Origin: Escherichia phage vB_EcoS_HdH2 | Direction: 5' to 3' (one strand) | Sequence record: NC_048748.1 | DNA length: 64,000 bases | Shown: in pieces, positions 55,738-58,243 of the stretch | How positions within the stretch are numbered: the stretch's first letter is position 1 | Layout: each line of letters opens with the position of its first letter | The notes under the pieces: generated by a model | What the model was told of the DNA's origin: nothing | What the model saw: only the letters and a program-made list of their open reading frames with translations | The model's database searches: none | Made by a program: the position numbers and the translations under genes

Positions 55738-55927
55738 GGGTTTAAACTCCGTTTTGGAAAACGCATTAATGCAGCACTGGGAAACTGGCTATAAGGATGG
55801 TGTTGAATCCTGCGCTACTATGCTAGAAGTTATTGCTAATACCTTAATGGAGAAAGACAATAAAGAATTAGCTGAGCTATTAGACAGTATTGGGCAAAAC
55901 TTCAGAGAACAGGTGAAAAATGCGTAG
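55706..55927 (+). CDS. hypothetical protein
   Basis: 73 aa. Confidence 0.4.
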   Translation: MAFSKPMLPDKGLNSVLENALMQHWETGYKDGVESCATMLEVIANTLMEKDNKELAELLDSIGQNFREQVKNA

Positions 55928-56744
55928 ATTAATTATTATTAGCGGTGCAGGTTTGAGTGTTGAAAGTGGCGTACGAGCTTTTCGTACTGATACTGCTAGT
56001 GGTAAAGCACTGTGGGATGATTATGATCTAGAAGAAGTATGTAATATTCATGCCTTTCGTGGTAATTTTTATCATAAAACCCATATGTTTTACAACAAGC
56101 GTCGTGAAGAGTTAGAAACTGTTGAACCTAATCTTGCACACTTGCGTATTGGTGAATGGTATAAGAAATATCCGGGTCAAGTAGTAAATTTGACTACTAA
56201 CGTTGATGACCTTATTGAGCGTGCTGGTGTTCCGCATAGTGACATTTTGCATATTCATGGATATTTAAAAGAGGTTGTTGTAGCTGACAGCTACAATAGT
56301 AGCAATAAACGAGTTATTGATGTTGGGTATAGCTCTATTGACCCAGATGATTATAAATGGGCTAAACCTAATGTAATCTTCTTTGGTGAGCATGCTCCAG
56401 CGTACGCAGAAATGTACAATATTTTTGATGGTATTACCAGTCAAGATATGATCGTTGTGGTTGGTTGCTCTAACCAAGTAATTAACTTCTACTGGGAATT
56501 ATTTCCTGTTCTTAATTTGACTGCTGCCAAATTAATGGTAGTTAACTACTATGATAGTGCCCTAGCGACAGAGCCAGGCTATCAAGGTATGACTCGTAGT
56601 GAGATGTACCAGCTGGAAGAACGCGGTATCCCTTACTGGAGTAAAGGGGCTGTAGATGCCTTCAGTGACCCTGATTTTATTGCTCGTGTAGAAGCTCATC
56701 TAGAGGGTAGACCTTATATGCCGGGGAAACAAATATGTCCATAA
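55920..56744 (+). CDS. Sir2-family (sirtuin-like) NAD-dependent enzyme
   Basis: GAGLSVESGVRAFR, TTNVDDLIERAG, HIHGYL, PNVIFFGE, VVGCS mirror the sirtuin motifs GAGIS..SGIP.FR, TQN.D.LH.RAG, HG, P.VV.FGE, VVGTS. Confidence 0.65.
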   Translation: MRRLIIISGAGLSVESGVRAFRTDTASGKALWDDYDLEEVCNIHAFRGNFYHKTHMFYNKRREELETVEPNLAHLRIGEWYKKYPGQVVNLTTNVDDLIERAGVPHSDILHIHGYLKEVVVADSYNSSNKRVIDVGYSSIDPDDYKWAKPNVIFFGEHAPAYAEMYNIFDGITSQDMIVVVGCSNQVINFYWELFPVLNLTAAKLMVVNYYDSALATEPGYQGMTRSEMYQLEERGIPYWSKGAVDAFSDPDFIARVEAHLEGRPYMPGKQICP

Positions 56745-56917
56745 TTAAATCTGTGTATACACACCCTGATGATATATTTGTATGGGCGGACGGTAGTTGG
56801 TGCTATCGCTGTGAGTTGTGGGAAATGGACTATAAATCCGATGACTATGGTGTTATATATGTGGATACGGTTGAGTATGATACGTTCTTAGAAAGGAACA
56901 AAAATGGAAATAAGTAA
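56735..56917 (+). CDS. hypothetical protein
   Basis: 60 aa. Confidence 0.35.
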   Translation: MSIIKSVYTHPDDIFVWADGSWCYRCELWEMDYKSDDYGVIYVDTVEYDTFLERNKNGNK

Positions 56918-57410
56918 TACTCCAATTATTTTTCTAGACATTGATGGGGTGCTCAATTCGAGCATCTCCCACCATCATGCACCTGATGATGAAAAGATTT
57001 TCTTTGGAAGTGACTGGGTTTTCAAACCGCTTCTCAAGGCTTTTCAGGACTTTATTCGTCCTTCTCCGATAATGATTGTTGGAGTATCCTCATGGTTCTC
57101 TGTCAGGAATGAGATGGAGAACGTTCAGATTATGACCGGATTAGGTCTTATCGATCGTTTTCTTGGTACAACGGATTTTACTGGTGGTGGGCTATCTAGG
57201 GGTAATTCTGTTCTTCGCTTCGTTGAAAAGCATAAGCTCAAACATTGGTGTGTGCTGGATGATGCCGGTGCTATGATGTATCAGTATCCAACGGTTATAG
57301 TCAATGGTAGAACAGGAATAAATCTTCAGGATTTAAAAGCTGTTAGCTATATGCTAGAATTTAGCCCAGATCTTGAAATGTGTAAATCCTTACAACAATT
57401 TAAGGTGTAA
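56904..57410 (+). CDS. HAD-superfamily phosphatase-like protein
   Basis: FLDIDGVL N-terminal DxDGxL motif. Confidence 0.5.
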   Translation: MEISNTPIIFLDIDGVLNSSISHHHAPDDEKIFFGSDWVFKPLLKAFQDFIRPSPIMIVGVSSWFSVRNEMENVQIMTGLGLIDRFLGTTDFTGGGLSRGNSVLRFVEKHKLKHWCVLDDAGAMMYQYPTVIVNGRTGINLQDLKAVSYMLEFSPDLEMCKSLQQFKV

Positions 57411-57412
57411 AT

Positions 57413-57841
57413 ATGTTCAATAATGTATTCTCTAAAGAAGCTAACCCAATTTTGGTTAACTTTTGGCGTACTCTCCCGGCTAGCCTGTATAATGAGGCTA
57501 TTAACTCCTTGAAAATATGGTGTGAGAATAACGAAATCTCCTTTGCTTTTAAAGATGATATTGATGAGGCCCCCTGTATTGGTTTAATTGTTCAGGTAGA
57601 GGAGGGTCTTGAAGAAATTGTCGGCTGGAAAGAGTTAGATGAAATGGGCTTAGTTTTTGCGTTAAACTATAAGCTGTTTATGCCTGCTAAGCATCGCCTC
57701 GTTGTTAACTATAAAACCAGTGAATCTCCTGGCTTTCAAGTTAATGAACATTACGGTTGGTCTTACTCACCGGAAGAAGTAAATGAGGGGATTCAGAAAC
57801 TTCGACGTTTCGGGTATATGATCCCAGGTTTAACCGCCTAA
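57413..57841 (+). CDS. hypothetical protein, paralog A of a tandem pair
   Basis: Shares PCIG, MGL(V/I)(F/V)ALN and Y(M/V)(I/V)PGL blocks with 57851-58243. Confidence 0.5.
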   Translation: MFNNVFSKEANPILVNFWRTLPASLYNEAINSLKIWCENNEISFAFKDDIDEAPCIGLIVQVEEGLEEIVGWKELDEMGLVFALNYKLFMPAKHRLVVNYKTSESPGFQVNEHYGWSYSPEEVNEGIQKLRRFGYMIPGLTA

Positions 57842-57850
57842 GGGGGCACA

Positions 57851-58243
57851 ATGGAACAAGTATATTGGCGTCAGATTGATCCTAGTTTGGTGAAGCGTGC
57901 GGAGAAGCTGCTACAACGTTGGTTGGTGGTAAGACAAGCCTCCTTCACTTTTCCGGAGCAGCAAACGGATGATCCATGCATTGGCGTTTTCCTGTCTGGA
58001 TATGCCGGGGAGTGGGAATTGGATTGGAATGAATTGTCTGCTATGGGCTTGATTGTTGCCCTAAACTTCTCTATATTCCATCCACGTGGTTTGGCCATAT
58101 GTCGTGTGCCTGATGACGGTTGTTCGCCCCATCTTTTACAGGTGGAAGATGATATTTGGGAGTACACTCCAGGTATTCTCAAAGAAGCTAAAGAACAATT
58201 AAATCGTGTTGGGATCTATGTTCCGGGGCTAAATGATGAATGA
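57851..58243 (+). CDS. hypothetical protein, paralog B of a tandem pair
   Basis: See paralog A. Confidence 0.5.
   Translation: MEQVYWRQIDPSLVKRAEKLLQRWLVVRQASFTFPEQQTDDPCIGVFLSGYAGEWELDWNELSAMGLIVALNFSIFHPRGLAICRVPDDGCSPHLLQVEDDIWEYTPGILKEAKEQLNRVGIYVPGLNDE

What the first reader, a model, noticed from the sequence alone, without database searches (positions are those of the whole stretch)
55920..58243. Sir2-like enzyme, HAD-like phosphatase and a tandem paralog pair form a plus-strand module
The Sir2-like protein retains the sirtuin NAD-binding motifs. It is followed by a DxDGxL HAD-like protein and two adjacent paralogs (142 and 130 aa) sharing PCIG, MGL.ALN and Y.IPGL blocks. Sir2 domains are NAD-consuming effectors in several bacterial defence systems, so a phage-borne Sir2 with accessory genes could be a deacetylase or ADP-ribosyltransferase that modifies host proteins, or a decoy.
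Basis: partly seen in the sequence, partly recalled or inferred. Interest (0 to 1): 0.5.

Follow-up and report, generated by a model that had tools for sequence, protein, structure and literature searches.

The report
T5-phage sirtuin–HAD phosphatase early operon
This is the well-conserved early operon of a T5-like phage, encoding an active-looking NAD-dependent sirtuin, a small phosphatase and two proteins of unknown fold; the gene set is already annotated and its role in RNA-end repair has been predicted in print but never tested.

Summary
Positions 55920-58243 carry a 274-aa sirtuin, a 168-aa HAD phosphatase and two paralogous 142/130-aa proteins, all as described.

The window is a T5-like phage (96-97% identical to known Demerecviridae). 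These genes are orthologs of T5.102-T5.107. They belong to one eight-gene early operon (55178-58243).

The sirtuin keeps every NAD-binding and catalytic residue, plus the class-III Y-x-x-R motif. It lacks the zinc-binding cysteines, falls below every CobB cut-off and matches no defence-type SIR2 model. The HAD is a capless "Swiss-army-knife RNA-repair" type with all four catalytic motifs.

Iyer et al. 2022 already described this sirtuin+HAD neighbourhood and predicted a KptA-like, NAD-dependent clean-up of RNA 2'-phosphates. No experimental test was found.

Points added here:
- Sir2 and HAD are lost together in two independent natural deletions.
- T5 knockdown data call them "Not Fit".
- The paralogs (DUF7415) are an orphan phage fold that is inherited independently.
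- Only the 130-aa copy keeps the family signature.
- HAD homologs sit beside NARP1-like NAD-reconstitution genes in other phages.

Verdict: real, already known, function unproven.

The parts
55087..55111 (+). Rho-independent terminator-like hairpin ending the nrdD unit
   Evidence: 10-bp stem, 6 GC pairs, T-run. BF23 has an annotated terminator at the same place.
55122..55150 (+). Sigma-70-like early promoter: TTGCTT, 17-nt spacer, TATAAT (inferred)
   Evidence: Read from the sequence. It coincides with the early promoter predicted in the BF23 record. It falls below the scan's -35 threshold, so this is an inference.
55178..55537 (+). Small early ORF (119 aa), unknown function, first gene of the operon
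   Evidence: phrog_11748, E=4e-65. Weak homolog in My1.
55534..55737 (+). Small early ORF (67 aa), unknown function (T5.101 ortholog)
   Evidence: phrog_5236. Conserved in BF23, DT57C, L027 and L031.
55706..55927 (+). Small early ORF (73 aa), unknown function; overlaps the Sir2 start by 8 nt
   Evidence: phrog_5827. Overlap.
55920..56744 (+). Zn-less CobB-like sirtuin (T5.102 ortholog)
   Evidence: PF02146, E=1e-23. phrog_2162, E=8e-120. E. coli CobB 1s5p, E=2e-17. Invariant residues G9-A10-G11, S13, F21-R22, Y58/R61, N94/D96, H113, F155-G156-E157 and G182/S184; no Zn cysteines. Below all NCBIfam CobB cut-offs. No PADLOC hit.
56735..56917 (+). Sir2-associated small protein (60 aa; T5.103/T5.104 family); overlaps Sir2 by 10 nt and HAD by 14 nt
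   Evidence: phrog_5116, E=6e-30. It follows Sir2 in the rearranged contig L004 and in the unrelated Salmonella phage 7-11. It is duplicated in T5.
56904..57410 (+). Capless HAD phosphatase of the SAK RNA-repair type (T5.105 ortholog)
57413..57841 (+). DUF7415 protein a (142 aa; T5.106 ortholog), degenerate copy
   Evidence: PF24187, E=5e-36, two units. It lacks 9 of the family-signature positions, including N60K, H77M and R85V.
57851..58243 (+). DUF7415 protein b (130 aa; T5.107 ortholog); keeps the full family signature
58267..58293 (+). Terminator-like hairpin plus T-run closing the operon
   Evidence: Sequence (CCGAGTC/GGCTCGG stem, then TTTTAT). It coincides with the ARNold terminator annotated in BF23. 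The simple scan did not call it.

Best explanation
Shown:
- The region is the ortholog of T5 genes T5.102-T5.107, in a sigma-70-driven early operon of a T5-like phage.
- It encodes a sirtuin that is catalytically intact but lacks the zinc site, a small Sir2-linked protein, and a capless HAD phosphatase of the 'Swiss-army-knife RNA-repair' type.
- Two DUF7415 proteins follow, and they are inherited separately.
- The unit is an accessory function, dispensable on laboratory hosts.

Inferred (most likely mechanism):
- Sir2 and HAD form a two-enzyme, NAD-consuming unit that cleans up damaged RNA ends. A likely setting is tRNA cut by a host anticodon nuclease.
- The sirtuin would attack NAD+ with a 2'-phosphate on the RNA, as KptA/Tpt1 does. 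This would release nicotinamide and ADP-ribose 1''-2'' cyclic phosphate.
- The HAD would remove a remaining terminal phosphate, or dephosphorylate the ADP-ribose-phosphate by-product.
- T5-like phages encode no RNA ligase or kinase, so sealing would have to rely on host enzymes.
- The DUF7415 proteins are probably a separate, nucleotide-linked accessory function.
For: Identity and operon structure.

Intact enzymes:
- Sirtuin catalytic and NAD-binding residues are invariant in 7 phage lineages plus CobB.
- All four HAD motifs are invariant in 15 homologs.

The sirtuin is a distinct clade:
- No Zn cysteines in any phage ortholog.
- 87-97 bits against CobB cut-offs of 243-320.

Recurrent linkage of the orthologous sirtuin (50-61% identity) with RNA-end or ADP-ribose-processing genes in unrelated phages:
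- FFH2: Rnl1 RNA ligase, cREC, Sir2, pyrophosphohydrolase.
- SSE121: cREC, P-loop kinase, Sir2.
- Jumbo phage fHe-Yen9-04: Nampt, then an annotated small 'RNA ligase' ORF (matching the 2H gene of the published type-1 layout; not domain-scanned here), Sir2, Nudix.
- Demerecviridae: Sir2 with the SAK-type HAD.

The same three neighbourhood types and the KptA-like model are published (PMC9503650).

Evidence that Sir2 and HAD are coupled:
- They stay adjacent despite a changed gene order (L004).
- They stay adjacent despite a sirtuin allele swap: Sir2 51% identical against HAD 90% in L027 and rutana.
- Two independent natural deletions, DT57C and L031, each disable both genes at once.

The capless HAD fold suits bulky or macromolecular substrates. 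The invariant Y58-x-x-R61 motif recognises an anionic group in class III sirtuins (established knowledge for SIRT5 and CobB), which is compatible with a phosphate.
Against: - No experiment exists. The only paper found linking phage sirtuins to RNA repair is the 2022 prediction itself.
- T5-like genomes have no RNA ligase, polynucleotide kinase, cREC, 2H or Nudix homolog in this window or in BF23 from 47 to 108 kb. The repair pathway would therefore be incomplete.
- The sirtuin retains everything a protein deacylase needs, and CobB is its closest solved relative.
- In phage 7-11, ESCO5 and Vibrio phage D482 the ortholog has no recognisable RNA-repair neighbour.
- Outside Demerecviridae, none of 52 distant HAD homologs has a Sir2 within 6 kb. 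The Sir2-HAD adjacency could therefore partly reflect vertical inheritance within one family.
- Phage early regions are rich in nucleotide-metabolism genes in any case.
- Knockdown of T5.102-T5.106 was called 'Not Fit' (PMC11879866, supplementary file 16). This shows dispensability and says nothing about function.
Confidence: 0.38

Rival explanations
1. The sirtuin is a CobB-like protein lysine deacylase. Its pocket may favour desuccinylation or demalonylation. It would remodel host or phage proteins early in infection, for example by activating acetyl-CoA synthetase. The HAD and DUF7415 genes would be merely syntenic.
For: - The closest solved relatives are the deacylases CobB, Sir2Af and SIRT5.
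- The catalytic His, N/D, FGE and class-III Y-x-x-R residues are invariant.
- This hypothesis was published for Vibrio phage sirtuins (PMC5107563).
- Several orthologs stand alone among DNA-metabolism genes.
Against: - The Zn-binding cysteines are lost in the whole phage clade, and scores fall far below all CobB equivalog cut-offs.
- The linkage with RNA ligase, cREC, kinase, an annotated small 'RNA ligase' (2H in the published layout), Nudix and HAD genes recurs in four phage groups.
- Sir2 and HAD are deleted together twice.
Confidence: 0.25
2. Sir2 and HAD act on soluble NAD+/ADP-ribose-derived metabolites rather than on RNA. They could process or destroy ADP-ribose-based immune signals. 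Alternatively they could feed ADP-ribose phosphates back into NAD+ salvage, as a counter-defence.
For: - HAD_SAK_2 homologs (38-39% identity) lie directly upstream of a Prs-like plus NAPRTase pair in Serratia phage ChuuTotoro and in a JGI contig.
- That Prs-like protein is about 40% identical to its homologs in Felixounavirus-type phages. From background knowledge, this is the group that includes Bas63, where NARP1 was demonstrated (Bas63 operon).
- A phosphatase partner of NARP1 has precedent: Adpp dephosphorylates ADPR-1''P (bioRxiv 10.64898/2026.01.28.702374).
- A NAPRTase lies within 6 kb of two distant HADs, and a Nudix gene lies immediately downstream of another.
- Nampt lies 2.5 kb from the jumbo-phage sirtuin.
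- T5 itself depends on an NAD-dependent DNA ligase.
Against: - T5-like phages carry no NARP genes.
- A sirtuin consumes NAD+ rather than restoring it.
- The published Adpp is a Macro domain, not a HAD.
- The HAD-NARP1 adjacency was seen in only one phage lineage.
Confidence: 0.2
3. All five genes of the finding (Sir2, HAD, both DUF7415 proteins and the small ORF) work as one obligate multi-protein system.
For: - They form a single tightly packed operon.
- The order Sir2, small ORF, HAD, DUF7415 is kept in Markadamsvirinae and in My1.
- The DUF7415 core is fused elsewhere to a P-loop kinase and to a MazG-like pyrophosphohydrolase. These enzyme types accompany the sirtuin in rV5-like phages.
Against: - Both DUF7415 genes are kept intact, at 90-95% identity, in the two natural Sir2/HAD deletion phages.
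- L004 has Sir2 and HAD but no DUF7415.
- DUF7415 occurs in T4-like phages where no Sir2 is annotated in the flanking regions examined.
- No DUF7415 lies next to Sir2 in the other four phage families examined.
Confidence: 0.08
4. The sirtuin is an inactive decoy, or a defence-type NADase borrowed from bacterial immunity.
For: Only the general fact that SIR2 domains are NADase effectors in defence systems.
Against: - All catalytic residues are invariant.
- There is no PADLOC model hit.
- The match is to the canonical sirtuin family PF02146.
- The gene is conserved at 50-60% identity across many phage families, which argues for purifying selection on an enzyme.
Confidence: 0.03

Closest known systems
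Phage T5 genes T5.102 (Sir2-like), T5.103/104, T5.105, T5.106 and T5.107, and their orthologs in BF23, SP15 and others
   Same: Same genes in the same order and the same operon. Nucleotide identity to known Demerecviridae is 92-97%. PHROG assignments match the T5 re-annotation.
   Different: The window has one copy of the small phrog_5116 ORF where T5 has two. Otherwise there are only allelic differences.
Type-3 sirtuin-centred predicted RNA-repair neighbourhood (Iyer, Burroughs, Anantharaman, Aravind 2022, PMC9503650)
   Same: A distinct phage sirtuin next to a SAK-like HAD in an SP15/T5-like phage. This is exactly the configuration described there.
   Different: In the passages of that paper read here, there is no mention of the small Sir2-linked ORF, the DUF7415 pair, the natural co-deletions or the HAD-NARP1 adjacency. 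The predicted activity remains untested.
E. coli CobB (class III sirtuin; PDB 1S5P)
   Same: Best sequence match among solved structures (E=2e-17, 32% identity). It shares GAGxS, FR, Y-x-x-R, NxD, the catalytic HG and FGE.
   Different: There are no Zn-binding cysteines. Q becomes T in the TQNxD motif. The V-Y-P substrate-staple motif is replaced by V-I-N. The protein scores far below the CobB equivalog cut-offs.
KptA/Tpt1 RNA 2'-phosphotransferase
   Same: The proposed chemistry is the same: NAD+ is attacked by an RNA 2'-phosphate, giving nicotinamide and ADP-ribose 1''-2'' cyclic phosphate. In other phages the sirtuin also shares KptA's kind of partners (cREC, Nudix, ligase, and the 2H gene reported by Iyer et al.).
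   Different: The fold is unrelated (Rossmann sirtuin versus ART). This is an analogy from gene context only, and no activity has been shown.
Capless HAD phosphatases (MDP-1, Scp1/Fcp1, UBLCP1; functionally the T4 Pnkp phosphatase domain)
   Different: Only about 15% identity. There is no sequence-detectable solved relative. The substrate is unknown.
NARP1-AP (Adps, Namat and the Adpp phosphatase)
   Same: In ChuuTotoro-like phages, a phage phosphatase gene is attached to a Prs-like/NAPRTase operon.
   Different: Adpp is a Macro-domain enzyme. The T5-like window has no NARP genes.

Membership tests
Sirtuin / Sir2 family (PF02146) | Profile score above the curated cut-off | tested here: met
   84.5 bits against a cut-off of 24, covering 178 of 180 profile positions.
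Sirtuin / Sir2 family (PF02146) | NAD-binding GAGxS...FR motif, NxD, catalytic His, FGE and GxS | tested here: met
   G9 A10 G11 S13 F21 R22 N94 D96 H113 F155 G156 E157 G182 S184 are invariant across 7 phage orthologs plus CobB.
Sirtuin / Sir2 family (PF02146) | Zn-binding cysteine cluster in the small domain | tested here: not met
   No cysteines lie between H113 and P150 in the window protein. The CobB cysteine positions are not conserved in any phage ortholog. The same was noted for Vibrio phage sirtuins.
CobB protein deacylase (NCBIfam equivalogs NF040867, NF001755 and others) | Score above the equivalog cut-off | tested here: not met
   Best scores are 97.2 bits against 243 and 87.2 bits against 320.
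Class III sirtuins (CobB/SIRT5 type) | Y-x-x-R motif that binds an anionic acyl group | tested here: met
   FYNKRR: Y58 and R61 are invariant and align with the CobB sequence FYNARR. The meaning of the motif comes from established knowledge.
Defence-type SIR2 NADases (Thoeris ThsA, DSR, SIR2-HerA, pAgo-associated) | Match to a defence SIR2 model, or a fused or adjacent sensor or partner | tested here: not met
   No PADLOC hit at E<=0.01. The neighbours are phage early genes.
HAD superfamily, HAD_SAK_2 (PF18143) | Profile score above the cut-off and the four HAD motifs (DxD; S/T; K/R; DD) | tested here: met
   73 bits against 27.5. D12, D14, S62, S63, R99, D119 and D120 are invariant. The predicted fold is a capless HAD.
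HAD superfamily, HAD_SAK_2 (PF18143) | Phosphatase activity on RNA terminal phosphates | not testable with these tools
   Inferred from the family name and from Iyer et al.. No biochemical data were found.
Phage sirtuin-centred RNA-repair system, type 3 (PMC9503650) | A sirtuin of the distinct phage clade adjacent to a SAK-like HAD in an SP15/T5-like phage | tested here: met
   (13 of 14 T5-like IMG/VR loci).
Phage sirtuin-centred RNA-repair system, type 3 (PMC9503650) | NAD-dependent removal of an RNA 2'-phosphate | not testable with these tools
   This is a prediction only. No RNA ligase or kinase is present in the T5-like genome to complete the pathway.
KptA/Tpt1 | ART-fold 2'-phosphotransferase domain | tested here: not met
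   The protein has a Rossmann sirtuin fold. Any resemblance would be functional only.
DUF7415 (PF24187) | Profile match, plus the family core signature W-N..S..GL...N....HP.GLA..R....G.S.......D....Y | tested here: met
   Both proteins pass the Pfam cut-off. The 130-aa protein has the full signature. The 142-aa protein lacks 9 signature positions.
NARP1-AP phosphatase (Adpp) | A Macro-domain phosphatase inside an Adps/Namat operon | tested here: not met
   The HAD fold is not a Macro domain. There are no Adps or Namat homologs in the window or in BF23.

The most novel reading that the evidence does not exclude
The phage sirtuin would be the first Sir2-fold enzyme to use NAD+ to remove a phosphate from RNA, as a KptA analogue. 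Its SAK-type HAD partner would dephosphorylate the ADP-ribose-phosphate by-product. In ChuuTotoro-like phages the same HAD would then feed ADP-ribose into NARP1. This would tie tRNA repair to NAD+ reconstitution and make the HAD a non-Macro alternative to Adpp. DUF7415b, with its near-invariant N72/H77/S92, would be a new nucleotide-binding or catalytic mini-domain.
Probability: 0.2. Interest if true: 0.75.

Novelty: already known. Interest (0 to 1): 0.3.

Why it matters
Sirtuins of this clade occur in about 990 of 50,697 phage records. They span T5-like, rV5-like, phapecocta-like, 7-11-like, schizoT4 and jumbo phages, yet no substrate is known.

If the KptA-like model is right, it would add a new reaction class to the sirtuin fold. 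It would also add a new branch to phage counter-measures against tRNA-cleaving defences. If the metabolite model is right, it would extend the NAD+-centred arms race (NARP1, NARP1-AP, aRES) with a new phosphatase family.

This work supplies practical handles for testing:
- ready-made natural Sir2/HAD deletion phages;
- the prediction that the DUF7415 pair is a separate function, with T5.107 as the active copy;
- the HAD-NARP1 adjacency.

The window's own copy is an ordinary ortholog.

Tried and rejected
- Defence-type SIR2: no PADLOC hit.
- Decoy sirtuin: the catalytic residues are invariant.
- The 'Sir2 (x2)' annotation of the HAD in RefSeq: traced to phrog_18062, a 92-aa profile evidently built from chimeric Sir2-C-terminus/HAD-C-terminus deletion remnants like that of DT57C.
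- Sequence search of the PDB for the HAD and for DUF7415: nothing significant.
- Word-indexed protein search for DUF7415: only T5-like relatives. The exhaustive profile search was needed to go further (167 clusters).
- Two long hits in that search, P0091 and P0110, are repeat or low-complexity artefacts.
- A structured RNA in the 570-nt ORF-free stretch before obp: no Rfam hit, folding z-score -0.3.
- tRNAs in the 1.4-kb ORF-free stretch of L004: none.
- A homolog of RNA ligase, kinase, cREC, the small 'RNA ligase' ORF, Nudix or NARP in the window or in BF23: none.
- Internal-repeat detection in DUF7415b by BLAST: nothing. Only the Pfam profile sees two units.
- PHROG and Pfam scans of unannotated Sir2 and HAD neighbours in ESCO5, Pm5461, Aes012, ChuuTotoro and My1: uninformative.
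- The afdb50 fold library was unavailable.
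Full report
**Observation.**
- The first matches the Pfam sirtuin family (PF02146, E=1e-23).
- The second matches HAD_SAK_2 (PF18143, E=4e-20).
- The last two both match DUF7415 (PF24187, E=5e-36 and 9e-31). They are clear paralogs, at 32% identity with E=1e-20, and share phrog_2502.
It overlaps the end of Sir2 by 10 nt and the start of HAD by 14 nt.
- All eight genes are packed with overlaps of 4-32 nt or gaps of 2-9 nt, and each has a ribosome-binding site.
- The unit starts after the nrdD terminator hairpin (55087-55111) and a TTGCTT-17-TATAAT promoter-like site. 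It ends at a hairpin plus T-run at about 58267-58293.
- These signals match the promoter and terminators annotated in phage BF23.

**Genome identity.** The segment is 92-97% identical to many Demerecviridae, including vB_EcoD-Elw, NBEco001, BF23 and T5 relatives.
- The genes are orthologs of T5.102 (Sir2), T5.103/104 (small ORF, duplicated in T5), T5.105 (HAD), T5.106 and T5.107. These names come from the T5 re-annotation in PMC11879866.
- The flanks are those of T5: phoH and nrdD upstream, and the origin-binding protein downstream.

**The sirtuin.**
- Its closest solved relatives are E. coli CobB (E=2e-17), the archaeal Sir2Af proteins and SIRT5.
- I aligned seven phage orthologs with the CobB segment: the window, a divergent T5-like contig, My1, SSE121, FFH2, ESCO5 and 7-11.
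- All NAD-binding and catalytic positions are invariant in that alignment. These are GAGxS, FR, NxD, H113-G, FGE and GxS.
- The class-III Y58-x-x-R61 motif is also invariant.
- None of the phage proteins keeps the CobB zinc cysteines. The usual V-Y-P staple reads V-I-N.
- The protein scores far below every NCBIfam CobB cut-off (97 bits against 243). It matches no PADLOC defence model.
- It is therefore an enzymatically intact member of a distinct phage sirtuin clade. It is neither a defence-type NADase nor a decoy.
- The clade is widespread. tblastn finds it in 992 phage records across T5-like, rV5-like, Seunavirus, Phapecoctavirus, 7-11, schizoT4 and jumbo phages.

**The HAD.**
- All four HAD motifs are invariant in 15 homologs down to 36% identity: D12/D14, S62/S63, R99 and D119/D120.
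- The AlphaFold model is confident (pLDDT 94).
- No solved relative is detectable by sequence.

**The DUF7415 pair.**
- The 130-aa protein folds confidently (pLDDT 90).
- An exhaustive profile search finds only 167 clusters. Most are 50-200-aa phage or prophage proteins carrying one ~55-residue unit.
- A few are fusions to a thymidylate-kinase-like P-loop kinase (P0105) or to a dATP/dGTP pyrophosphohydrolase (P0118, P0119).
- Across 142 units the signature is W59, N60, S63, G66, L67, N72 (100%), H77 (96%), P78, G80, L81, A82, R85, G90, S92 (99%), D100 and Y105.
- The 130-aa paralog has all of these. The 142-aa paralog has lost nine, including N60K, H77M and R85V, and is a degenerate copy.
- The 'tail tube protein' labels in some records have no support.

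**Is it one module?** Within Demerecviridae the order Sir2, small ORF, HAD, DUF7415 is kept in Markadamsvirinae (13 of 14 IMG/VR loci) and in the distant My1. The parts nevertheless behave differently.
- *Sir2, the small ORF and HAD:*
  - A divergent T5-like contig, L004, has the order HAD, 81-aa ORF, Sir2, small ORF, and no DUF7415.
  - The small ORF also follows Sir2 in the unrelated phage 7-11.
  - Epseptimavirus-type phages carry a sirtuin allele only 51% identical, next to a HAD that is 90% identical.
  - Two independent natural deletions disable Sir2 and HAD together. In DT57C the Sir2 C-terminus is fused to the HAD C-terminus. In L031 orf73 is fused to HAD residue 64.
  - Both deletion phages leave the two DUF7415 genes intact, at 90-95% identity.
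- *DUF7415 on its own:*
  - DUF7415 units occur in T4-like phages, and no Sir2 is annotated in the flanking regions examined.
  - They often lie next to nrdD, RNA ligase 1 or a Nudix gene.
- *HAD outside Demerecviridae:*
  - None of 52 distant HAD homologs has a Sir2 within 6 kb.
- *Conclusion:* Sir2, the small ORF and HAD are plausibly a unit. The DUF7415 pair is a neighbour rather than a component.

**Context of the sirtuin elsewhere.**
- In Vequintavirus FFH2 the ortholog lies between an Rnl1-type RNA ligase plus a cREC domain protein and a pyrophosphohydrolase.
- In Seunavirus SSE121 it follows cREC and a P-loop kinase.
- In jumbo phage fHe-Yen9-04 it lies between a small ORF annotated 'RNA ligase' and a Nudix gene, with Nampt 2.5 kb upstream. 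I did not domain-scan that small ORF. It occupies the place of the 2H gene in the published type-1 layout.
- In 7-11, ESCO5 and a Vibrio phage no such partner is recognisable.
- These are the three neighbourhood types reported by Iyer, Burroughs, Anantharaman and Aravind (PMC9503650, section 3.7.3).
- Their type 3, prototyped by the T5-like phage SP15, is exactly this sirtuin plus SAK-like HAD.
- They proposed that the sirtuin acts like KptA, using NAD+ to remove RNA 2'-phosphates. The partner enzymes would open cyclic phosphates or process the ADP-ribose cyclic phosphate product.
- I found no experimental follow-up.
- A rival published idea is protein deacetylation of acetyl-CoA synthetase (PMC5107563).

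**Mechanism and its weaknesses.** I favour the RNA-end model at about 0.38.
- *In favour:*
  - The partner genes recur in unrelated phages and are specific.
  - The clade has diverged from CobB.
  - The HAD is capless.
  - Sir2 and HAD are lost together.
- *Against:*
  - T5-like genomes have no RNA ligase, kinase, cREC, 2H or Nudix homolog, so sealing would need host enzymes.
  - The sirtuin keeps all deacylase features.
- *A second lead* points to soluble NAD/ADP-ribose metabolites instead.
  - HAD homologs lie directly upstream of a Prs-like plus NAPRTase pair in Serratia phage ChuuTotoro and in a JGI contig.
  - That Prs-like protein is about 40% identical to its homologs in Felixounavirus-type phages. 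From background knowledge, that group includes Bas63, where NARP1 was demonstrated.
  - A phosphatase attached to NARP1 has precedent in the Macro-domain Adpp, which counters aRES.
- *The two readings can be reconciled:* in the KptA-like scheme, the HAD may act on the ADP-ribose-phosphate by-product.

**Dispensability.**
- In the CRISPRi-ART screen of T5, T5.100-T5.106 are 'Not Fit'. Only T5.107, the signature-bearing DUF7415 copy, is marginally 'Fit' (p=0.02).
- The origin-binding protein T5.108 is also 'Not Fit', so the assay's sensitivity is limited (PMC11879866, supplementary file 16).
- Together with the natural deletion phages, this marks Sir2 and HAD as accessory functions. They are probably needed only on particular hosts.

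**Verdict.** The window's copy is an ordinary ortholog of long-annotated T5 genes, and the sirtuin-HAD association has been described and interpreted in print. Novelty is therefore 'already known'. Residual interest lies in the untested chemistry and in the handles found here: the co-deletion mutants, the small Sir2-linked ORF, the independent and asymmetric DUF7415 pair, and the HAD-NARP1 adjacency.

Noticed in passing
window 54302-54487 (inside nrdD, 53108-55079): A perfect 90-nt inverted repeat (arms 54302-54391 and 54398-54487, 6-nt spacer) splits nrdD into 440-aa and 215-aa ORFs. The right arm is genuine nrdD sequence and the left arm is its reverse complement. BF23, DT57C, My1 and L004 have an intact nrdD of about 610-624 aa. 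This is either an assembly artefact or a recent inverted duplication that inactivates nrdD.
   Followed up: partly
L002 5001-8217 (Serratia phage ChuuTotoro) and L003 5001-8569 (JGI contig): A HAD_SAK_2 homolog lies directly upstream of a Prs-like plus NAPRTase pair that resembles the NARP1 NAD+ reconstitution operon. This may be a HAD-type counterpart of the published Macro-domain Adpp phosphatase. The adjacency is not mentioned in the NARP papers I read.
   Followed up: partly
L012 2980-3252 (DT57C) and L031 5929-6315 (IMG/VR T5-like contig): Two independent natural deletions each remove or truncate both Sir2 and HAD, while keeping both DUF7415 genes. They are ready-made mutants for functional tests.
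   Followed up: yes
window 56904-57410; RefSeq records: Many RefSeq phage records label the HAD gene 'Sir2 (NAD-dependent deacetylase)'. The cause appears to be phrog_18062, a 92-aa profile matching both the HAD C-terminus (E=6e-58) and Sir2 residues 169-216. It was evidently built from chimeric deletion remnants like the DT57C 'defective sir2'.
   Followed up: yes
window 57413-58243; records: The DUF7415 genes are annotated 'tail protein' or 'tail tube protein' in some GenBank records. Fold searches give no support for this.
   Followed up: yes
P0105, P0118, P0119: The ~55-aa DUF7415 core is fused to a thymidylate-kinase-like P-loop kinase and to dATP/dGTP pyrophosphohydrolase domains. In T4-like phages single-unit proteins lie next to nrdD, RNA ligase 1 or a Nudix gene. 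N72, H77 and S92 are nearly invariant, which suggests a binding or catalytic site.
   Followed up: partly
L027 4788-7340; The operon is mosaic within T5-like phages. Epseptimavirus-type genomes have a sirtuin only 51% identical to the window's (a longer variant), while the adjacent HAD is 90% identical and the DUF7415 genes 71-75%. This implies that the sirtuin allele was replaced in situ.
   Followed up: partly
window 58294-58860: A stretch of about 570 nt without ORFs lies between the operon terminator and the origin-binding protein gene. It has no Rfam match and no unusual folding energy. The equivalent gap in L004 (6790-8250) is 1.4 kb, free of ORFs and of tRNAs.
   Followed up: partly
T5.107 ortholog, window 57851-58243: In the published CRISPRi-ART T5 screen this is the only gene of the operon called 'Fit' (fitness -2.90, p=0.0215). 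It is also the paralog that retains the full DUF7415 signature.
   Followed up: no
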